Source: Mosigvirus mar005p1
DNA length: 64,000 bases
Sequence record: OZ035759.1
Direction: 5' to 3' (one strand)
The first letter of the stretch is position 1. Each line of letters begins with the position of its first letter. A model generated the notes under the pieces. It was not told the DNA's origin, searched no databases, and was given only the letters and a program-made list of their open reading frames with translations. Below are positions 2,788 to 53,584 of the stretch, piece by piece. Both the position numbers and the translations under genes were made by a program.

Positions 2788-3396
2788 TCAGTAACTGACA
2801 ATAGACAGATTCCAGATTGTATAACGTCCATCCTGAATAATAGAATCTACACGCAGTGTAGTCCCTATAGGGAGCATAAATTCACATTCGTCAGATATAA
2901 GTCTAGCATTAGACCGTCTTGTCGCTTCAGGGAAAGCTCCATTGAACTCACAAGATGGCGCAGCCAGAATCATGTTAAGCATATGTTCACGGAAGTTGAA
3001 AGCAAATGGTGCATCTTTAATGCAGAACATATTAAATGTTCCGTAAAAATTATACGAAGCAAAGTTACGTGCTACACCGAACACTGGACTAAAGCTCATT
3101 ACTCTGTCAAATTTAATAATACTACCAACGCCTTTATCGTCGAGTGTGGCCATAGTTTTCTTAGAGATTCCACGATACATTGTCTCAGGAACTGAAGAAG
3201 ACCAATTTCTACGAACAATTGCACTTAAATCTTGTTGGATGCTATCAGGCTTGTTTTCCATACACTGCCACAGTACACTTTGTTCAATGTCGCTGAATTG
3301 CTCATCGATTTTGTACTGAAGCATATCTTGATAATCTGGACATTGGGCACGACGAACCATTTCTTCAATTTCACACTCGTTATACGGCATAAACAT
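2788..3396 (-). CDS. modA: ADP-ribosyltransferase ModA-like
   Basis: 202 aa; R-S-ExE ART signature elements (YRG, ECEF); position after srd slot as in T4. Confidence 0.65.
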   Translation of the reverse strand: MFMPYNECEIEEMVRRAQCPDYQDMLQYKIDEQFSDIEQSVLWQCMENKPDSIQQDLSAIVRRNWSSSVPETMYRGISKKTMATLDDKGVGSIIKFDRVMSFSPVFGVARNFASYNFYGTFNMFCIKDAPFAFNFREHMLNMILAAPSCEFNGAFPEATRRSNARLISDECEFMLPIGTTLRVDSIIQDGRYTIWNLSIVSY

Positions 3397-3424
3397 TTTG
3401 GTTTCTCCTCTGGGTGATAGATCT

Positions 3425-3453
3425 ATAATATCATCGTCTGTAGAGTTTGTACA
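3425..3453 (-). promoter_or_regulatory. T4-type early promoter upstream of modA
   Basis: Minus strand TGTACA-17 nt-TATTAT, followed by AGGAG SD and ATG. Confidence 0.45.
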
Positions 3454-4035
3454 CTAAAAATTCAACATTTTCAAATGAATGATTTTGTATAATCGAGATA
3501 AAGGGTCATATTCTAAGTCTTCAATTTCCACAATCTCAAATCTAGAGATACCTGAGACCATGTACTCTTGTTCAGATTCAATCATATCTAGGACGTCAAC
3601 ACGCGTTTCTTCCATAACATGCTTAGGGTTCTTTCCGGCGAGTACAATGTTAACCATGTTTTGGTAGTAATCAAAAATGAACGGAGCATTCCTGAGACTA
3701 AGAATAGTGTACGTCTGATATTCCCATCTCCCAGAGAATTGACGAGCTGTACTGAAATCAGTTGTGAACGATGTTACTCGTCCAGGAGACCAATGGCATC
3801 CAACAGAAAGAAGTGAAAGACGTTCTACTTCTTCTGGAGTTACACCGCGGTAGAGTTCTACTGGTACTGTAGAAGTCATATGCTTACGAACAAGATGGTC
3901 TAATTCATAGTGGAAATCCGGGTCTTCCTTAGAATCGGTGCAAGCCCAGAGAATGTTTTGTTCTTGGCGGGTGAATTTGCTATCAATCAGATTTGTTAGG
4001 TATTCGCGTTCTTGAAGTTCAGATTGACATGTCAT
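3454..4035 (-). CDS. modB: ADP-ribosyltransferase ModB-like
   Basis: 193 aa; YRG...STAR...ESEQE motifs; paralogue of adjacent modA. Confidence 0.65.
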   Translation of the reverse strand: MTCQSELQEREYLTNLIDSKFTRQEQNILWACTDSKEDPDFHYELDHLVRKHMTSTVPVELYRGVTPEEVERLSLLSVGCHWSPGRVTSFTTDFSTARQFSGRWEYQTYTILSLRNAPFIFDYYQNMVNIVLAGKNPKHVMEETRVDVLDMIESEQEYMVSGISRFEIVEIEDLEYDPLSRLYKIIHLKMLNF

Positions 4036-4062
4036 GATAGACCTCCATTTAAAGATAAGCCT

Positions 4063-4091
4063 ATCATAACACGAGAGGAGGGAATGTAAAC
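4063..4091 (-). promoter_or_regulatory. T4-type early promoter upstream of modB
   Basis: Minus strand GTTTACA-16 nt-TATGAT, then SD and ATG at 4035. Confidence 0.55.
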
Positions 4092-4255
4092 TATTTTTTA
4101 AGCTTTCCTACTAAAGGTCCATCAGGGCCAGGTTGTTCTAACATGAATAACGATGCTTTAAAAAGCAATGTCAACCCTTTCACCATTCGATACCATGTCT
4201 CAAAGTCTTTTTCCTTGATTTCTAGTAAGAATTTCTCTTTAAATTTCTCTTTCAT
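4091..4255 (-). CDS. small hypothetical protein (54 aa)
   Basis: ORF below the 60-aa track threshold; ATGA overlap with upstream ORF suggests translational coupling. Confidence 0.3.
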   Translation of the reverse strand: MKEKFKEKFLLEIKEKDFETWYRMVKGLTLLFKASLFMLEQPGPDGPLVGKLKK

Positions 4256-4440
4256 TTCCAAGGACTCCATGGTGGAGGGTCGTCATAATAAGACGCTAGG
4301 TCTTTCAGGACTTCTAACGGTAAACTAAAACCATGACGTTGTATAATATTACCAATTTCATTGACAAGTTCACCACGTTGTTCTTTAGGAGCCTCAACTT
4401 CGGACTCATCAAACATACTCATCAAGTCCATATTATTCAC
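4252..4440 (-). CDS. hypothetical protein
   Basis: 62-aa ORF, start overlaps stop of upstream gene. Confidence 0.45.
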   Translation of the reverse strand: MNNMDLMSMFDESEVEAPKEQRGELVNEIGNIIQRHGFSLPLEVLKDLASYYDDPPPWSPWK

Positions 4441-4897
4441 CGAGATAAAAACTAGCCGGTTCAGAGAATGTTTCTAGTGCTACACCTTTTGTCTTAAAAA
4501 ATTTCCAAATAGCTCGTTGCAAATGGATTAAATCTGCTAATGATGTAATAAAGTATTTTTTGGCAAAATACGTATGGTCTCGCTTTTCAAACAGGTCTAA
4601 ACGCTTTTCAGGATTCACATAAACGGCATTTTCTGTAGATTCATACCCTAAGTCCTTTATGCCTTCTTCAAGACTAAACGGAGAATTTTTAGAATGAGTA
4701 ATAGCTCCAACTCGCTCTACACGAATTTTGTAACCTTTAGGAATCTGCAATTTGCAGAATTCTTCTACGATATATTGCGGATTATTTAGACTTTTGTTAA
4801 TGAGAATAGCTATTTCTAGTGGAGTCTTATCTTCCACTGGTATATGTTTAAATGACTTGGCTTCAAGCAAATACATTTTAAATAGCATAGCATCCAT
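4433..4897 (-). CDS. hypothetical protein (T4 mrh-region position)
   Basis: 154-aa ORF in operon context. Confidence 0.55.
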   Translation of the reverse strand: MDAMLFKMYLLEAKSFKHIPVEDKTPLEIAILINKSLNNPQYIVEEFCKLQIPKGYKIRVERVGAITHSKNSPFSLEEGIKDLGYESTENAVYVNPEKRLDLFEKRDHTYFAKKYFITSLADLIHLQRAIWKFFKTKGVALETFSEPASFYLGE

Positions 4898-8438: not shown

Positions 8439-9098
8439 TTAACCTCGATTCATAAATGCATTAAATATTTGGTCATCAACAGAAATTTCTAATTCGACTT
8501 CAATTGCTTCGGCCTTTTCTTCAGGTGGTAATTCGTATCCACACACTACAATTTTTTCATCGATATCAAAATATACAGAAGCAATACGATTAATGTTACT
8601 TTCAGTTAAGTCTAAATCAACATCAACATCTTTTTGACCTACACTTAAAGGATAACTAATACGGGTTATTTTATTATCTTTAACAAAGAGTCCACCAACA
8701 TACTCTGTACTACGTTTAAAGTTTACACGTTTCCGAATTGAAAGATATGATGCATCTTTACCATGAGCTCGGCTCATAGGACATAATGAATAGCTAGAAT
8801 AAGAGATGTCAAATCCTACACCTTCAATATGAGCCAACGTGTCATGATTAAACCAATTATAATCATATGCCAAATCCATTATATTGTAATATGTGAAAGG
8901 CACAGGATTAACATCATATGTTGTACCTTTAAAATCTGCCCAGGCAACGATTTCATTATCTTTAACAATTACAAAAATTACACCAATATGATATCCGTTA
9001 TTATTTTCGTTCGGCGTTATATTATAACATTGTGCATTAGGAAATTTACCATATTTAAATGGTGCGTTTTTGTGCATATAATAAATCATATTATTCAC
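8439..9098 (-). CDS. hypothetical protein
   Basis: 219-aa ORF. Confidence 0.55.
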   Translation of the reverse strand: MNNMIYYMHKNAPFKYGKFPNAQCYNITPNENNNGYHIGVIFVIVKDNEIVAWADFKGTTYDVNPVPFTYYNIMDLAYDYNWFNHDTLAHIEGVGFDISYSSYSLCPMSRAHGKDASYLSIRKRVNFKRSTEYVGGLFVKDNKITRISYPLSVGQKDVDVDLDLTESNINRIASVYFDIDEKIVVCGYELPPEEKAEAIEVELEISVDDQIFNAFMNRG

Positions 9099-49271: not shown

Positions 49272-49574
49272 TTAGATAGATGTAGGCTCTAATTTTATTT
49301 TCATGAACTCGGCAAATTGTCTGGCAGTTTTTATGCCTTGTTCATGACATTCAAATGCATCATCACAGGGGCTATTTTTGTAATGCTTTGCCATATACTT
49401 ATAGAATTTTTCAGAATTCTCGACATTTTGAATTTCAAACAAAGTATATACGTTTTTAATCCCTGATTCCATAAAGTTATCAAAATATGGGTCGATATAT
49501 GCAGTACCAACGATAGGAGTTGTTGCTGCAAAAAACCCCAGCATCGCCATGACAGCTATCGCTCTTAAGGCCAT
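49272..49574 (-). CDS. secreted protein (signal peptide)
   Basis: 100 aa; N-terminal MALRAIAVMAMLGFFAATTPIVGTA. Confidence 0.5.
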   Translation of the reverse strand: MALRAIAVMAMLGFFAATTPIVGTAYIDPYFDNFMESGIKNVYTLFEIQNVENSEKFYKYMAKHYKNSPCDDAFECHEQGIKTARQFAEFMKIKLEPTSI

Positions 49575-49586
49575 ATAGGCCTCCTG

Positions 49587-49799
49587 TTAATTTTGGCCAG
49601 TATTTATTTTTCGCCTTTGGACGGCCTTAACATCTGTGAGGTATTTTTCCAGCTTGCGCTTGCGTGTATAATCAGCTTTAGAACCAGTTTGACGGATATC
49701 CTCGTTTAAATGAGAAATAGAATGTCCTAATTCTCTTCGGATTTCATCCAATTGGGTTACAGTAAGATTACGAAGTTGTCTTTCGTTTAATTGCTGCAT
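49587..49799 (-). CDS. hypothetical protein
   Basis: 70-aa ORF. Confidence 0.5.
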
Positions 49800-49826
49800 A
49801 TATACCTCTTGGTTAGATATTAGTAT

Positions 49827-50408
49827 TTATAACAACCCTGTCAAATCGTTCCAATGCTTCCGGCATAATGACACATATCTATCGGTATCACCAATTTCAA
49901 TTTGACTGCCATCTGTAATTGGAAGTCCATCTTCCGTGACTCTAGCTACCATTGTGGCCTTTTTACCGCAATGACAGACACCTTTAAGTTCAACAAGCTT
50001 ATCGGCAATAGCCATTAATGCTTGAGAACCTTCAAATAGATTACCTTTAAAATCTGTTCGTAGTCCATATGCCATTACCGGCACATTGTATACGTCAACA
50101 ATACGACTAAGTTGATACACCTTTTCAGTAGTTAAGAACTGAGCTTCATCAACAAATACACAGTGAATATCCTTTTGTGCTGCAGCCCATTTATAGAATT
50201 CAAAGATATCCATGTCTTTTGTAATTATATTGGCATCCTGACGAATACCAATACGAGAGACTATTTCACCTTTTGAATCGCGAGTATCAATAGCCGGTTT
50301 AAGAACTAATACACCCATGCCACGTTCTTTATAGTTATGTGCGGCAGTAAGTAATGAAGCGGACTTACCAGCGTTCATAGCGGCATAGGTAAAAATTAAA
50401 CTAGCCAT
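49827..50408 (-). CDS. tk: Thymidine kinase
   Basis: 193 aa; P-loop AAMNAGKS; C-terminal Zn motif CHCGKKA...C; T4 Tk is 193 aa. Confidence 0.88.
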   Translation of the reverse strand: MASLIFTYAAMNAGKSASLLTAAHNYKERGMGVLVLKPAIDTRDSKGEIVSRIGIRQDANIITKDMDIFEFYKWAAAQKDIHCVFVDEAQFLTTEKVYQLSRIVDVYNVPVMAYGLRTDFKGNLFEGSQALMAIADKLVELKGVCHCGKKATMVARVTEDGLPITDGSQIEIGDTDRYVSLCRKHWNDLTGLL

Positions 50409-50417
50409 AAGAGTCCT

Positions 50418-50600
50418 TTATAGTGAATTCACATAGTCAATGAGTTCTTGTTCTTTCCTGTCAAATGATTCCATCAATGCGTGATATTCTTCATCTGTTA
50501 AAGGAGCATATTCATCATACGCATTGGTGGCCGCTTGCTCATCCAATAGGTCGTGGATAAGTTCGAACAGTTTAGTTTTCTCTTCTTTAGTCAATTTCAT
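50418..50600 (-). CDS. hypothetical acidic protein
   Basis: 60-aa ORF. Confidence 0.45.
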   Translation of the reverse strand: MKLTKEEKTKLFELIHDLLDEQAATNAYDEYAPLTDEEYHALMESFDRKEQELIDYVNSL

Positions 50601-51091
50601 TTAGGTTCCCAATCAACAATCACAATTTCTAGTTTAGTGGAATACGTATCTAAAATCTCTTCGATGACATCCCAGTTTCCACCACCAATACCTGCACCAA
50701 TTCTTGGCATATAAATTACAGGCTTTGTTATCTTATTCTTTCCGAATTCATTTAATTCTATTATACAATTCATTAAAGCAGAGTACTCAAAATTAGGTCC
50801 CGGTTCAAACTGCGTATAAAGATTAAAGCAATAAGCTTTATGGGTCTTAAAATATTTTTCATAAACCGAATAAGTTCCGAGTTTAGACTCATCTCCGAAT
50901 TCGGTTTGAAGTTTATCGGCTTCCAGAATTTTTGGATAAGCCTTTGCTAATTGTCCTGCTACACCGGCGCCCATTGTATGAAAACAATTACACCCATGAG
51001 CAATATTATTACCTTTAGAAAACAGGGCGACAATATCGCCCTTGATATAGTTTTTAATCACTTGCTGCAAGTCCTCTATTATAAGAGTCAA
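50597..51091 (-). CDS. macro-domain protein (ADP-ribose binding/hydrolase family)
   Basis: 164 aa; GDIVALFSKGNNIAHGCNCFHTMGAGVAGQLAKAYP resembles macro-domain signature. Confidence 0.6.
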   Translation of the reverse strand: MTLIIEDLQQVIKNYIKGDIVALFSKGNNIAHGCNCFHTMGAGVAGQLAKAYPKILEADKLQTEFGDESKLGTYSVYEKYFKTHKAYCFNLYTQFEPGPNFEYSALMNCIIELNEFGKNKITKPVIYMPRIGAGIGGGNWDVIEEILDTYSTKLEIVIVDWEPK

Positions 51092-51401
51092 CTAGACGGT
51101 CCACCATAGAATTGCATGCTGCCTTATCTTTAGGTTCCGCCACCGAGCATTCTAATATTTGCCATTTTTTATAGTATCTTTTAATTAAGGTAGACGCCTT
51201 GAACCTACTAGACGCCCCATCTTTTTCTCCGTCTTTATATGCGTATAACAATTTTTGTGAAAAATCTACTTTACACTCTTGACTTTTACCACAATAATCA
51301 GACGCCGTTCTGTTTGTATACTCCGTTACATCAGTATATGTAGTATTAGCAAGAGCGTTAAATGAAACCAAGCCAACTATTAAAGCCAACATTTTGGTCA
51401 T
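51054..51401 (-). CDS. secreted protein (signal peptide)
   Basis: 115 aa; MTKMLALIVGLVSFNALA; overlaps macro gene start. Confidence 0.45.
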   Translation of the reverse strand: MTKMLALIVGLVSFNALANTTYTDVTEYTNRTASDYCGKSQECKVDFSQKLLYAYKDGEKDGASSRFKASTLIKRYYKKWQILECSVAEPKDKAACNSMVDRLVDSYNRGLAASD

Positions 51402-51940
51402 TCTTTTATTTCCAGTAGTTTATTTGATTTAAGGTAATTAGCCTTTTCTAGGACTTCAGAAGCATATTTACTTCCAGCACTTGTCTTCCATCCCGCATTA
51501 TATGAGGATATAGCTTTTCTTATATCCCCGTTATGTATATTTAACCAATAAGAAAATTCGATATAAGCCCATCTGGCTGAATTAGACCGCTTAGATAGCA
51601 TTTTCTTAATTTGGGCATCAGTCATATTATAACCAAGCTGGTTAATTCTTGCCCTCATTGTTGGTAGATAGTTTTGGAACATTCCATACGCATGGTGACC
51701 TTTCTTATCTTTAAGATTAACACCGGCAGATGATTCTTGCCATAGTATTGCGGCCATTATGTATCCAAGTCCTTTCTTATGCATATTTTCATGCGTTTTA
51801 AATTTTCCGTCCTTAGAAAACTGTTCCCCAAACTGATAAGCATAATTCAAGTTATCGAGTTGGACATTACTAAAAGTATGCTCGGAGCTATGTGCTGATA
51901 ATGAAAGAGCAAATAGACCAGCGAGTAGTGCTTTTCTCAT
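51398..51940 (-). CDS. periplasmic protein, lytic-transglycosylase-like
   Basis: 180 aa; signal peptide; ILWQESSAG / HAYGMFQ motifs reminiscent of SLT domain. Confidence 0.45.
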   Translation of the reverse strand: MRKALLAGLFALSLSAHSSEHTFSNVQLDNLNYAYQFGEQFSKDGKFKTHENMHKKGLGYIMAAILWQESSAGVNLKDKKGHHAYGMFQNYLPTMRARINQLGYNMTDAQIKKMLSKRSNSARWAYIEFSYWLNIHNGDIRKAISSYNAGWKTSAGSKYASEVLEKANYLKSNKLLEIKE

Positions 51941-51948
51941 GTTTACCT

Positions 51949-52407
51949 CTAGATTTTAATCACTGCTTTAGAAGCTTTTCCTGGTAGTCGTTTACTGTTA
52001 ATAATAGCCATTCTGCATTGAAGAGTCTTCATTTTGAATGCTGGATTTTCGCGACAAACTGTAAGTCCTAACCAAAGATTTCCATCAGTTATTTCTAAAC
52101 GGCCTGGGCGGTATTCGACACCTTCGACAAAATCTTCATCAACGTCTGGACGTGCCGGCATTGATAAAAATTCTGTAACTTCTTTAACATGATTTTTTAC
52201 TTTATGAAATAATTCAAAAACGTAATTCTCATCTATTTCTCTCTGGATGGCACGATCTAAGAGATGTTGAGAATACTTGATATGAAAGCCTGGTAGTCCA
52301 AGAGACTTTGCAGCATCTTTTATACCGGCATTTATTTTGCGGAACTCCGTTTCAAAGATTCGACGGAGTTTATTACGGCGGATAAAAACTTCCGAATTGA
52401 TAGTCAT
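51949..52407 (-). CDS. regB: Sequence-specific endoribonuclease RegB
   Basis: 152 aa; near-colinear with T4 RegB as recalled (YSQHLLDRAIQREIDE...LQCRMAIINS.RLPGKASKAVIK). Confidence 0.88.
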   Translation of the reverse strand: MTINSEVFIRRNKLRRIFETEFRKINAGIKDAAKSLGLPGFHIKYSQHLLDRAIQREIDENYVFELFHKVKNHVKEVTEFLSMPARPDVDEDFVEGVEYRPGRLEITDGNLWLGLTVCRENPAFKMKTLQCRMAIINSKRLPGKASKAVIKI

Positions 52408-52435
52408 TTTGATTTCTCCTCTAGTTGACAGATCT

Positions 52436-52464
52436 ATAGTAACACAACTAGAGGAGAAGTAAAC
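52436..52464 (-). promoter_or_regulatory. T4-type early promoter upstream of regB
   Basis: Minus strand GTTTACTTCTCC...17 nt...TACTAT, then GAGGAGAAAT SD. Confidence 0.55.
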
Positions 52465-52805
52465 TACTCTTTGAAAGGAATTAACTTTTTAACTGCTTTA
52501 GATACTTCGTCACGAACCTGGTGGAAGTTCTTGAGCTGTTCAAGGCGTTGTTCGTAATACGCAATCTCATCTTCTTCAAGACAATCGTCAGCGTCTTCTT
52601 TCAGATATGCCTTGTACTCATTAAAGAGGGCCCATAGGCGGTTCTCAAAGTCATCAAGGCTTTGAATTTTCTTGTGCTTCGGAACAAGGCCAAAAGGATT
52701 GCTTTCAGTTATGCGTCGAGATGCTTCATAATGAGTTCCAAAGCCTGATAGGATTTGAGCCATTAGTATTTTTCCTCTGGTTGAAATACCGCACGACAAG
52801 CCCAC
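52464..52805 (-). CDS. hypothetical protein
   Basis: 113-aa ORF. Confidence 0.5.
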
Positions 52806-53008
52806 ATACTAGCTTCCTTTAGGCGTTCTTTAGCACAGTTCAATTGGGACAAAGCTGTCAAAGCTTCAGGAGTATTCGCAGACAACGCTTCTTCCGCCAA
52901 GGCATCGAAAATAAGCCCTAATCGAACTTCTGCATCTTTAATAGCGTTCACTTTACCGATTTTATCATCGGTATGCGGCTTGTAGCCTTTGATGTCTTCA
53001 ATCGACAT
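52763..53008 (-). CDS. hypothetical protein
   Basis: Track ORF 52763..53176 trimmed to ATG with GAGGAAA SD. Confidence 0.4.
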
Positions 53009-53222
53009 AAGGAATTTCCTCATCGGTGGCAAGGTCATATTCGACCAATTGGATAGGCTCATTAATACCATATCCACGTACAGTGATATCAGTTGTCGGA
53101 TAGTTTCCAGTAATATCACCCATTCTAAATGCTTCAGTGAATGATTGCTCTCCAGAGCAACTAAACCAGGCGGCAAAACATTTTAAAACATCTTCAGACC
53201 CTTCTATAATCAATTTAGCCAT
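52998..53222 (-). CDS. hypothetical acidic protein
   Basis: 74-aa ORF. Confidence 0.45.
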   Translation of the reverse strand: MAKLIIEGSEDVLKCFAAWFSCSGEQSFTEAFRMGDITGNYPTTDITVRGYGINEPIQLVEYDLATDEEIPYVD

Positions 53223-53584
53223 TATAGACTCTCAGTAAAGGTACGAGCGATAACGTCGCGCTGCTGTTCCGGAGTCAGAGAGTTAAAGCGAACTGCATAA
53301 CCGGATACACGGATGGTCAGCTGCGGATATTTTTCCGGATGCTTAACTGCATCTTCTAGAGTTTCACGACGCAGAACGTTAACGTTCAGGTGTTGACCAC
53401 CTTCAATTTTAACTTTAGGTTGACGTTCAATTTCAATTTCACGGGCATGCAAACCGTAGAAAATTTCCGGGTCTACAATAGCGTCTTCTTTAAAAGTCTT
53501 AGAGACAATAATCCGGGCTTGAGTACCGTCTTCAAAATAAATAGTGCCTTTATGTGCACCTTCAAGAATTTGATATGCTTTCAT
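53222..53584 (-). CDS. grcA: autonomous glycyl-radical cofactor (GrcA/YfiD-like)
   Basis: 120 aa; C-terminal ~60 aa ([60 protein letters not shown]) essentially identical to enterobacterial GrcA/PflB glycyl-radical domain as recalled. Confidence 0.85.

What the first reader, a model, noticed from the sequence alone, without database searches (positions are those of the whole stretch)
50597..51091. Macro-domain protein in a genome that also encodes ModA/ModB ADP-ribosyltransferases
The 164-aa ORF has a macro-domain-like signature (GDIVALF...HGCNCFHTMGAGVAGQLAKAYP). Macro domains bind or hydrolyse ADP-ribose adducts. The same window encodes two ADP-ribosyltransferases (2788..4035). The macro protein could reverse or tune phage-driven ADP-ribosylation, or counter host ADP-ribosylating defences.
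Basis: partly seen in the sequence, partly recalled or inferred. Interest (0 to 1): 0.5.

Follow-up and report, generated by a model that had tools for sequence, protein, structure and literature searches.

The report
T4 Tk.4/AdfM macrodomain orthologue
This gene is the counterpart in a T4-like coliphage of T4 tk.4 (adfM), a small ADP-ribose-binding macrodomain protein already annotated in many phage genomes and recently shown in T4 to protect the phage against the bacterial DarTG2 DNA-ADP-ribosylating defence, so the finding is real but already known.

Summary
The ORF exists as described. Its real start is almost certainly the GTG at 51061, giving 154 aa rather than 164. It is a confident macrodomain: Pfam Macro scores above its cut-off, the AlphaFold model has pLDDT 96, and the best PDB fold matches are TARG1, Poa1p, BT1257, DarG and SCO6735. 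The window is a Mosigvirus-type T4-like phage, and the gene is the syntenic orthologue (83% identity) of T4 tk.4. Tk.4 was recognised as an A1pp/macro protein in 2006. A 2025 preprint renamed it AdfM because deleting it sensitises T4 to DarTG2. The first idea, tuning ModA/ModB, has no support: the genes lie 47 kb apart and this macro family is found in far more phages than Mod. One detail goes beyond the literature I read. The catalytic lysine of DarG (K80) and TARG1 (K84) is an invariant glutamine here (N-x-Y-T-Q). The same substitution occurs in Streptomyces SCO6735, which still cleaves thymidine-linked ADP-ribose. T4-type AdfM is thus a separate, lysine-less lineage from the DarG-like AdfM of jumbo phages. 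No biochemistry exists for it.

The parts
50597..51061 (-). Macrodomain gene, orthologue of T4 tk.4 / adfM. It encodes 154 aa from GTG 51061; the stop codon is at 50597-50599.
   Evidence: ORF. Pfam Macro. 99.4% identical to the phage moha 'macro domain protein', annotated as 154 aa. 83% identical to T4 Tk.4 with the same neighbours. AF2 model pLDDT 95.9. Foldseek top hits are TARG1, Poa1p, BT1257, DarG and SCO6735.
51062..51091 (-).
   Evidence: It lies within the vs coding sequence. Homologues and annotations start at the GTG, which overlaps the vs stop as GTGATTAA.
50984..50998 (-). Codons for H22-G-C-N25-C, active-site loop 1. N25 is equivalent to DarG N22 and SCO6735 N27; H22 is equivalent to SCO6735 H24 and Poa1p H23.
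   Evidence: Alignments. Near-invariant in 72 homologues. Residue roles from PMC9411070 and PMC13309987.
50810..50824 (-). Codons for N80-L-Y-T-Q84. Q84 occupies the position of the catalytic Lys of TARG1 (K84) and DarG (K80), and of the essential Gln85 of SCO6735.
   Evidence: Profile and MAFFT alignments. Q is invariant in 72 phage/metagenome homologues and 80 bacterial relatives.
50690..50707 (-). Codons for P119-R-I-G-A-G124, diphosphate-binding loop 2. G124 is equivalent to SCO6735 G128. TARG1 D125 corresponds to G126 here.
51054..51401 (-). vs (valyl-tRNA synthetase modifier), immediately upstream. Its stop overlaps the macro start by 8 nt.
   Evidence: PHROG 1256; annotation in moha and T4; sequence.
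50418..50600 (-). Small downstream ORF of 60 aa in the tk.1-tk.3 position. Its start overlaps the macro stop by 4 nt.
   Evidence: PHROG 653; moha_73.
49827..50408 (-). Thymidine kinase (tk), a synteny anchor.
2788..3396 (-). Mod-type ADP-ribosyltransferase in the modA position, next to srd.
   Evidence: PHROG 832 E=1.7e-38. tblastn with T4 ModA and ModB gives 34% and 32% identity. T4 gene order.
3454..4035 (-). Mod-type ADP-ribosyltransferase in the modB position.
   Evidence: PHROG 832 E=5.9e-38. 38% identical to T4 ModB.

Best explanation
The gene encodes a stand-alone 154-aa macrodomain, the orthologue of T4 Tk.4 (AdfM, 'anti-DarT factor macrodomain'). It is transcribed with the tk-vs-regB block of pre-replicative genes, and its start is translationally coupled to vs.

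Its most likely job is to protect replicating phage DNA from the bacterial DarTG2 toxin-antitoxin defence. DarT2 attaches ADP-ribose to thymidines in single-stranded DNA and blocks replication. The macrodomain would bind the ADP-ribose and hydrolyse the thymine-ribose bond, restoring the DNA. It would act as an orphan antitoxin without DarG's C-terminal DarT-binding domain.

The chemistry is probably not the lysine-based one of DarG and TARG1. The catalytic Lys position holds an invariant Gln (Q84), held next to the conserved Asn (N25) and His (H22). This is the constellation of Streptomyces SCO6735, where Gln85 and Asn27 are required for cleaving thymidine-linked ADP-ribose and a water-mediated mechanism has been proposed.

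Shown here: macro fold, orthology, synteny and residue equivalences. Shown in the literature for the T4 orthologue only: the genetic anti-DarTG2 phenotype. Inferred: that this phage's copy does the same, that it acts by hydrolysis, and that Q84 plays the SCO6735-like role.
For: - **Fold and family.** Pfam Macro is above its gathering score. The AF2 model has pLDDT 95.9 and pTM 0.91. Foldseek PDB hits at probability 1.00 are TARG1 4J5R, Poa1p 6LFR, BT1257 2FG1, DarG 5M3E/5M3I and SCO6735 5E3B. The PADLOC DarG model matches the macro part at E=6e-9.
- **Orthology.** The protein is 83% identical to T4 Tk.4, and the gene order regB - vs.1 - vs - macro gene - small ORFs - tk is shared with T4.
- **Function of the orthologue.** tk.4 was the only significant hit on DarTG2, the clean knockout is DarTG2-sensitive, and the protein was named AdfM. 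T4 and T2 lacking AdfN stay DarTG2-resistant, which implied a second factor (PMC11825919).
- **Precedent that macrodomains do this in phages.** PhiKZ AdfM removes T-ADPr in vitro and protects against DarTG2 (PMC13309987).
- **Residues.** N25 aligns with DarG N22. Q84 aligns with DarG K80, TARG1 K84 and SCO6735 Q85. H22 aligns with SCO6735 H24, and G124 with SCO6735 G128. Q84, N80, Y82, T83, G33, P119, G122 and G124 are invariant, and N25 and H22 near-invariant, in 72 homologues. Q84 is also invariant in 80 bacterial relatives, although YTQ was not part of the scan pattern.
- **A Gln-type enzyme is active.** In SCO6735, Q85A is dead and N27S nearly dead. The enzyme cleaves dT-ADPr on ssDNA and protects against DarT (PMC9411070). 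It also cleaves U-ADPr on RNA (PMC13036486).
- **Weak contextual support.** Three bacterial relatives have a NADAR gene immediately upstream, and about seven sit next to an Exo_endo_phos family gene.
Against: - No experiment exists on this phage's protein, and none on the biochemistry of T4 Tk.4. The T4 evidence is a preprint with genetic data only.
- The canonical catalytic Lys is missing.
- The two lysines that SCO6735 uses to hold DNA (K34, K89) are not conserved here: A32, and no Lys in the Q84-F-E-P-G loop.
- The family profile scores BT1257, TARG1, SCO6735 and DarG about equally, at 47-67 bits. This is a clade of its own, not a clear SCO6735 subfamily member.
- Bacterial relatives are not linked to DarT, as far as the 25 commonest families that each scan lists can show; a single DarT neighbour would have gone unseen. 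An origin as a DarG-derived antitoxin is therefore unsupported.
- SCO6735 Q85A can also inhibit DarT without catalysis, so protection need not be enzymatic.
Confidence: 0.68

Rival explanations
1. The macrodomain reverses or tunes the phage's own protein ADP-ribosylation by Alt, ModA and ModB, for example by removing ADP-ribose from RNA polymerase alpha, S1 or EF-Tu.
For: Two Mod-type transferases are encoded in the same window. Writer/eraser pairs are common in ADP-ribosylation biology. Arginine-specific macrodomains do exist: Legionella MavL is cited in the reference list of PMC13036486.
Against: - The genes are 47 kb apart and in different transcription units.
- The macro family is in about 2800 phage records across many host genera. 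Mod-like genes are in about 1000 records, and the ten commonest groups among them are enterobacteria-associated names.
- The closest structural and sequence relatives (TARG1, DarG, SCO6735, Poa1p) act on base-linked, Glu/Asp-linked or small-molecule ADP-ribose. No MavL-type match appears among the top PDB hits.
- Alt, ModA and ModB modify arginine (PMC8120803).
- The T4 screen gave a specific DarTG2 phenotype for tk.4.
Confidence: 0.06
2. It is a metabolite-processing enzyme, as the database label 'phosphatase' implies. It would act as an ADP-ribose-1''-phosphate phosphatase or O-acetyl-ADP-ribose deacetylase, like yeast Poa1p, with no role in defence evasion.
For: PHROG 335 is annotated 'phosphatase'. 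JGI names homologues 'O-acetyl-ADP-ribose deacetylase'. Poa1p is among the best sequence and fold matches and shares the H-x-C-N-C loop. Bacterial relatives sit in housekeeping-looking neighbourhoods.
Against: - These labels are transferred from the founding A1pp family and were not tested.
- Poa1p has Ser where this family has the invariant Gln. F152, the site of the deposited Poa1p F152A mutant, aligns with G126 here.
- From general knowledge, T4 RNA repair (Pnk/Rnl) does not generate ADP-ribose-1''-phosphate.
- The T4 knockout has a specific DarTG2 phenotype.
- Such side activities are common in macrodomains and could coexist with the main role.
Confidence: 0.08
3. It protects without catalysis. 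It would either bind and block DarT2, as inactive SCO6735 and DarG macrodomains can, or sequester ADP-ribose-derived immune signals such as Thoeris cADPR isomers or His-ADPR.
For: The canonical catalytic Lys is absent. SCO6735 Q85A inhibits DarT in vitro. Aravind and colleagues argued that most phage macrodomains target soluble ADPr signals (PMC9503650). ICP1 AdfB neutralises DarT by binding (PMC11481870).
Against: - Q84, N80, Y82 and T83 are invariant, and N25 and H22 near-invariant, across phages and bacteria. This is more typical of an active site than of a binding surface for one toxin.
- Bacterial relatives exist without DarT neighbours.
- The same Gln/Asn pair is catalytically required in SCO6735.
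- There are no data linking tk.4 to Thoeris.
Confidence: 0.13

Closest known systems
T4 Tk.4 = AdfM (anti-DarT factor macrodomain; bioRxiv 10.1101/2025.11.20.689424)
   Same: 83% identical, the same length, the same neighbours (vs upstream, small ORFs and tk downstream), and identical motif residues H22, N25, Q84 and G124.
   Different: It comes from a different genus of Tevenvirinae (Mosigvirus-like rather than Tequatrovirus). Only T4 was tested. There are minor substitutions, for example G127 here versus K in T4.
Streptomyces coelicolor SCO6735 (PDB 5E3B) and its homologue Bacteroides BT1257 (2FG1/2AFC)
   Same: Stand-alone macrodomains of about 150 aa in the ALC1-like/TARG1 class. They have Gln at the catalytic-Lys position, the conserved His-x-x-Asn loop, and a PRIG(A/C)G(L/I)(A/G)GG-x-W loop. 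SCO6735 cleaves T-ADPr DNA and counteracts DarT.
   Different: Identity is only about 25%. The motif is N-M-I-G-Q-H there versus N-L-Y-T-Q-F here. SCO6735's DNA-binding Lys34 and Lys89 and its longer mobile loop are not conserved. SCO6735 is a chromosomal, DNA-damage-regulated bacterial gene, not a phage gene.
DarG (DarTG2 antitoxin) macrodomain, PDB 5M3E / 5M3I
   Same: The same fold and class. The conserved Asn (N22) and both glycine-rich ADP-ribose loops are shared. The opposing target, DarT2 thymidine ADP-ribosylation, is the same.
   Different: Catalytic K80 is Gln here. There is no C-terminal DarT-binding domain (154 aa versus about 340). The NCBIfam DarG score is 32 bits against a cut-off of 250. 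It is not encoded next to a DarT.
Chimallivirus AdfM (PhiKZ gp104, PhiPA3 gp108; Cell Rep 2026, PMC13309987)
   Same: A phage-encoded stand-alone macrodomain that counters DarTG2, with the same name.
   Different: It is DarG-like, with N23 plus K78 (a Lys-type active site), and is imported into the phage nucleus. It scores only 29 bits against the Tk.4-family profile. Lys-type phage macros form a separate set of about 290 records. The two 'AdfM' proteins look like independent recruitments.
Human TARG1/OARD1 (PDB 4J5R)
   Same: The top Foldseek hit. The overall alignment spans the whole domain, and TARG1 also removes thymine- and uracil-linked ADP-ribose.
   Different: The K84/D125 dyad is Q84/G126 here.
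Yeast Poa1p (PDB 6LFQ-6LFU), ADP-ribose-1''-phosphate phosphatase
   Same: It shares the H-x-C-N-C loop and has a high fold-match TM-score of 0.80. It is the source of the 'phosphatase' and 'Poa1p-like' annotations.
   Different: It has Ser in place of Q84 and an insertion before loop 2, and its substrate is a tRNA-splicing by-product.

Membership tests
Macro domain (Pfam PF01661) | Profile match above the curated gathering score over most of the domain | tested here: met
   28.1 bits against a cut-off of 22, covering profile positions 2-117 of 118.
Macro domain (Pfam PF01661) | Three-layer alpha/beta macro fold | tested here: met
   AF2 model pLDDT 95.9. Foldseek gives probability 1.00 to many solved macrodomains.
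Macro domain (Pfam PF01661) | Glycine-rich ADP-ribose-binding loops, N-terminal Asp for adenine and C-terminal aromatic residue | tested here: met
   M-G-A-G (G31, G33), P-R-I-G-A-G (G122, G124), D9 and W151 are conserved across 72 homologues.
Macro domain (Pfam PF01661) | Binds ADP-ribose | not testable with these tools
   Needs ITC or a crystal soak.
T4 Tk.4 / AdfM orthologous group | High sequence identity over the full length | tested here: met
   83% identity over residues 1-153 of the 154-aa product. 207-212 bits against the family profile.
T4 Tk.4 / AdfM orthologous group | Conserved position between vs and tk | tested here: met
T4 Tk.4 / AdfM orthologous group | Required for plating on DarTG2-expressing hosts | not testable with these tools
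   Shown only for T4.
DarG antitoxin (NCBIfam NF048014, PADLOC DarG) | Full-length match above the curated cut-off, including the C-terminal DarT-binding domain | tested here: not met
   32.4 bits against a cut-off of 250. Only profile positions 4-148 of 338 are matched, and the protein is 154 aa.
DarG antitoxin (NCBIfam NF048014, PADLOC DarG) | Catalytic Lys80 in the F-P-T-K motif | tested here: not met
   It aligns to Q84 in N-L-Y-T-Q.
DarG antitoxin (NCBIfam NF048014, PADLOC DarG) | Conserved Asn22 | tested here: met
   N25.
DarG antitoxin (NCBIfam NF048014, PADLOC DarG) | Encoded next to a DarT toxin gene | tested here: not met
   The neighbours are vs and small ORFs. The 80 bacterial relatives show no DarT among their commonest neighbour families.
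TARG1-type hydrolase | Lys84/Asp125 catalytic dyad | tested here: not met
   Q84 and G126 occupy the aligned positions.
SCO6735-type (Gln) thymidine-ADPr hydrolase | Gln at the catalytic-Lys position, positioned by the conserved Asn, plus His24 and Gly128 | tested here: met
   Q84, N25, H22 and G124 align with Q85, N27, H24 and G128.
SCO6735-type (Gln) thymidine-ADPr hydrolase | DNA-binding Lys34 and Lys89 and an extended mobile loop | tested here: not met
   A32 sits at the Lys34 position. The loop after Q84 is F-E-P-G-P-N, with no Lys and no 5-residue extension.
SCO6735-type (Gln) thymidine-ADPr hydrolase | Cleaves thymidine-linked ADP-ribose from ssDNA | not testable with these tools
   Needs a gel-shift or AMP-Glo assay on a DarT-modified oligonucleotide.
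Poa1p-like ADP-ribose-1''-phosphate phosphatase | Residues mutated in the deposited Poa1p structures (His23, Ser30, Phe152) | tested here: inconclusive
   H22 is present. Thr29 replaces Ser30 and Gly126 replaces Phe152. The functional importance of these Poa1p residues is inferred from the names of the PDB mutants, not from a paper I read.

The most novel reading that the evidence does not exclude
T4-type AdfM is a lysine-less, glutamine-type ADP-ribosyl-base hydrolase. It would form its own widespread clade (motifs H-G-C-N-C, N-x-Y-T-Q and P-x-I-G-x-G), present in about 2800 phage genomes and many bacteria. This clade is evolutionarily separate from DarG and from the DarG-like AdfM of jumbo phages. 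Phages would then have recruited two different macrodomain lineages against DarT2. The T4-type enzyme may use a water-mediated mechanism like SCO6735, and possibly also clears uracil-ADP-ribose from RNA.
Probability: 0.45. Interest if true: 0.4.

Novelty: already known. Interest (0 to 1): 0.2.

Why it matters
This adds little to what is known. The gene is annotated as a macro-domain protein in dozens of GenBank phage records. The domain was noted in tk.4 orthologues in 2006 (PMC1524935).

The residual value is mechanistic. The T4-type protein lacks the catalytic lysine assumed when it is called 'DarG-like', and it shares the Gln/Asn/His arrangement of SCO6735. That gives a concrete, cheap mutagenesis test (Q84A, Q84K, N25A). 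It also suggests that the name AdfM currently covers two unrelated macrodomain lineages.

The window also carries a homologue of the anti-DarTG1 factor AdfA (gp61.2). This shows that T-even phages stack several counter-measures against DNA ADP-ribosylation.

Tried and rejected
- **TTG start at 51091 (164 aa).** Rejected in favour of GTG 51061, because the extension lies inside vs and no homologue has it.
- **Promoter and terminator scan of 49500..53300.** Promoter-like sites were no more frequent than in shuffles (11 versus 12.0 ± 3.4). No dedicated promoter can be claimed.
- **DarT next to bacterial relatives (antitoxin origin).** I scanned 133 flanking ORFs of 80 loci with Pfam and PADLOC. 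Among the 25 commonest families listed, DarT did not appear. Singletons beyond the 25 listed were not visible, so rare DarT linkage is not excluded.
- **Membership in DarG.** Rejected.
- **A MavL-like arginine-specific macrodomain.** No such structure appears among the top 50 Foldseek hits.
- **Literature search for 'AdfM'.** It was swamped by journal DOIs containing 'adfm'. Only two relevant papers were found, through other searches.
- **Papers on AcrIF11 and on Migulavirinae/Thoeris.** They mention macrodomains but have nothing on Tk.4.
- **Recovering the SCO6735 sequence.** It took three indirect PDB searches. The first two gave only fragments or none.
Full report
**Observation.**
It matches Pfam Macro (PF01661) at E=2e-6, 28.1 bits against a gathering score of 22, over profile positions 2-117 of 118. 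It also matches PHROG 335 ('phosphatase') at E=9e-67.

The first ten codons lie inside the upstream gene vs. The annotated orthologue in phage moha is 154 aa. tblastn alignments to T4 and more distant phages begin at residue 11 (9 or 10 in a few), and only the near-identical closest relatives align from residue 1. The 72-sequence alignment starts there too. The GTG at 51061 overlaps the vs stop codon as GTGATTAA, the usual T4 style of translational coupling. I therefore take 50597..51061 as the gene.

Both match PHROG 832 at E about 1e-38 and sit beside an srd-like gene, as modA and modB do in T4. They are only 32-38% identical to the T4 proteins.

**What the window is.**
The 1.7 kb around the gene is 98-99% identical to many Escherichia phages of the T4 type, such as vB_EcoM-pEB20. 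Phage moha, the one record whose taxonomy I looked up, is classified in the genus Mosigvirus. Several of these GenBank records already label the gene 'macro domain protein', 'ADP-ribose binding module', 'Poa1p-like family protein' or 'phosphatase'.

The gene order is regB - vs.1 - vs - macro gene - small ORFs - tk - rI. This is the order in T4, where the corresponding gene is tk.4, and the proteins are 83% identical. The macro (A1pp) domain of tk.4 orthologues was reported in 2006 (PMC1524935).

**What is known about the orthologue.**
A November 2025 preprint (10.1101/2025.11.20.689424) screened a T4 transposon library on E. coli expressing DarTG2. tk.4 was the single significant hit, and a clean deletion made T4 sensitive to DarTG2. 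The authors renamed the gene adfM and proposed, without biochemistry, that it removes ADP-ribose from DNA.

This closed a gap left by Johannesman et al. (PMC11825919). They showed that the NADAR protein AdfN (30.3) counters DarTG1 but not DarTG2, and that T2 and T4 lacking adfN remain DarTG2-resistant.

Independently, a 2026 Cell Reports paper (PMC13309987) named a DarG-like macrodomain of PhiKZ-type jumbo phages AdfM. [quoted passage not shown]

**Structure and class.**
An AlphaFold2 model built on 72 homologues is very confident (pLDDT 95.9, pTM 0.91). Foldseek against the PDB returns TARG1, Poa1p, BT1257, DarG (T. aquaticus, M. tuberculosis, Thermosipho DarTG) and SCO6735, all at probability 1.00. 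These rank ahead of the viral and MacroD-type macrodomains. Sequence searches of the PDB give the same set.

The PADLOC DarG model matches at E=6e-9, but only over its macro half. The NCBIfam DarG equivalog scores 32 bits against a cut-off of 250. The protein is therefore a stand-alone macrodomain of the ALC1-like/TARG1/DarG class, and it is not a DarG.

**Active site.**
I recovered the exact PDB sequences of M. tuberculosis and T. aquaticus DarG, TARG1, BT1257 and SCO6735 from search alignments. I aligned them with the window protein by MAFFT and against the family profile.

| Window residue | DarG | TARG1 | SCO6735 | Other |
|---|---|---|---|---|
| N25 | N22 | Ser | N27 | PhiKZ AdfM N23 (its homologue PhiPA3 gp108 has Asn in this column) |
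| Q84 (in N-L-Y-T-Q) | K80 | K84 | Q85 | PhiPA3 gp108 Lys |
| G126 | – | D125 | – | – |
| H22 | – | – | H24 | Poa1p H23 |
| G124 | – | – | G128 | – |

Q84, N80, Y82, T83, G33, P119, G122 and G124 are invariant in the 72 phage and metagenome homologues. N25 and H22 are near-invariant, at 71 and 70 of 72. Q84 is also invariant in 80 bacterial relatives found with patterns that did not include this motif.

For SCO6735 there is direct evidence that this arrangement is catalytic. Q85A abolishes and N27S nearly abolishes cleavage of thymidine-linked ADP-ribose from DarT-modified DNA. The enzyme protects Streptomyces from DarT, and a water-mediated mechanism was proposed (PMC9411070). SCO6735 also cleaves uracil-linked ADP-ribose on RNA (PMC13036486).

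The absence of the lysine therefore does not argue against hydrolase activity. It does mean the T4-type protein is not mechanistically 'DarG-like'. There are caveats. SCO6735's DNA-binding lysines (K34, K89) and its extended mobile loop are not conserved here. The family profile also scores BT1257, TARG1, SCO6735 and DarG similarly, at 47-67 bits. The N-x-Y-T-Q proteins are thus a clade of their own.

**Distribution and context.**
- tblastn finds the family in about 2800 phage records: Escherichia, Klebsiella, Salmonella, Pseudomonas, Vibrio, Acinetobacter, Aeromonas and others.
- DarG-like Lys-type macrodomains occur in a different set of about 290 records: chimalliviruses, Erwinia jumbo phages, coliphages of about 76 kb with Appr-1-p-type annotations, and Thermus phage phiMa.
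- Mod-type transferases occur in about 1000 records, and the ten commonest groups among them are enterobacteria-associated names. The macro gene is thus much more widespread than Mod, and in this window it lies 47 kb away from it.
- Bacterial relatives (35-45% identical; Ruegeria, Desulfobacter, Verrucomicrobia, Vibrio, Shewanella and others) are stand-alone proteins of about 150 aa in varied neighbourhoods. No DarT was seen among the commonest neighbour families.
- Three of these relatives have a NADAR gene immediately upstream. About seven Roseobacter-group loci show PALP - macro - Exo_endo_phos. This weakly fits a nucleic-acid ADP-ribose clean-up role and argues against a recent origin from a DarTG operon.

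**Interpretation.**
The best-supported reading is that this is the Mosigvirus copy of AdfM, an orphan, antitoxin-like eraser expressed with the pre-replicative tk-vs-regB block. It would remove DarT2's thymidine ADP-ribosylation from phage ssDNA so that replication can proceed.

- Orthology, fold and residue equivalence are shown here.
- The DarTG2 phenotype is shown only for T4, and only genetically.
- Hydrolysis and the role of Q84 are inferred from SCO6735.

I considered three rivals.
- Reversal of the phage's own Arg-ADP-ribosylation: no positive evidence, and the distribution and class fit poorly.
- A Poa1p-like metabolite phosphatase or deacetylase: this is the source of the database labels, but Poa1p lacks the Gln and the T4 phenotype is specific.
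- Non-catalytic protection by DarT binding or signal sequestration: not excluded, since inactive SCO6735 also inhibits DarT in vitro. However, the invariant active-site residues across phages and bacteria favour catalysis.

**Verdict.**
The feature is already known, both as an annotated domain and, for the T4 orthologue, as an anti-DarTG2 factor.

The one point I did not find in the papers read is the Lys-to-Gln active site, shared with SCO6735 and invariant in the clade. As a consequence, the two published 'AdfM' proteins appear to belong to different macrodomain lineages. This is a modest, testable refinement and does not amount to a discovery.

Noticed in passing
window 51024..51042 (-): An 8-bp GC-rich hairpin (AGGGCGATATTGTCGCCCT) followed by a T-run lies 20-37 nt inside the macro ORF, over the codons K-G-D-I-V-A-L. 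The same 30-nt stretch is identical in T4 tk.4, although the proteins are only 83% identical overall. It could be an RNA structure affecting translation or decay of the vs-tk.4 junction, or just codon conservation.
   Followed up: partly
window 8439..9089 (-): A homologue (66% identity) of T4 gp61.2, which is AdfA, the first described anti-DarTG1 factor of T-even phages according to PMC11825919. The window therefore carries two different anti-DarT candidates.
   Followed up: partly
window 2788..3396 and 3454..4035 (-): The two Mod-type ADP-ribosyltransferases are strongly diverged from T4 ModA/ModB (32-38% identity). Both resemble T4 ModB at least as much as ModA, so the ModA/ModB assignment by position may not reflect target specificity.
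   Followed up: partly
loci L037, L047, L068 (about 3444-4008, just upstream of the macro gene at about 3989/3992): In three bacterial genomes (two Ruegeria arenilitoris strains and a Bacteroidales MAG) a NADAR-domain gene sits immediately upstream of the N-x-Y-T-Q macrodomain gene. This would pair a guanine-ADPr eraser with a putative thymine-ADPr eraser.
   Followed up: partly
loci L018, L026, L033, L045, L050, L052 (macro at about 3992-4460): There is a conserved same-strand arrangement in Roseobacter-group bacteria: a PLP-dependent enzyme (PALP), the macrodomain, then a roughly 400-aa Exo_endo_phos family protein. Separately, six neighbours among the 133 scanned hit PADLOC AbiLi / Pfam AAA_21. 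I did not identify which loci those are.
   Followed up: partly
phage collection: Two non-overlapping-looking populations of phage macrodomains exist. The Gln-type Tk.4 family is in about 2800 records. The DarG-like Lys-type is in about 290 records: chimalliviruses, Erwinia jumbo phages, coliphages of about 76 kb, and Thermus phage phiMa at 82% identity to T. aquaticus DarG. Both have been given the name AdfM in different papers.
   Followed up: partly
window 53222..53584 (-): A 120-aa ORF ends in a glycyl-radical motif (RVSGYAVRF), corresponding to T4 vs.6. In phage moha it is annotated as an 'autonomous glycyl radical cofactor', a spare-part protein for a damaged anaerobic ribonucleotide reductase or PFL.
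   Followed up: no
window 51054..51401 (-): The HIDEN-SEQ preprint reports the upstream gene vs as the most strongly depleted T4 gene in minimal medium. Its stop codon overlaps the macro start, so polar effects between the two genes should be considered in knockouts.
   Followed up: no
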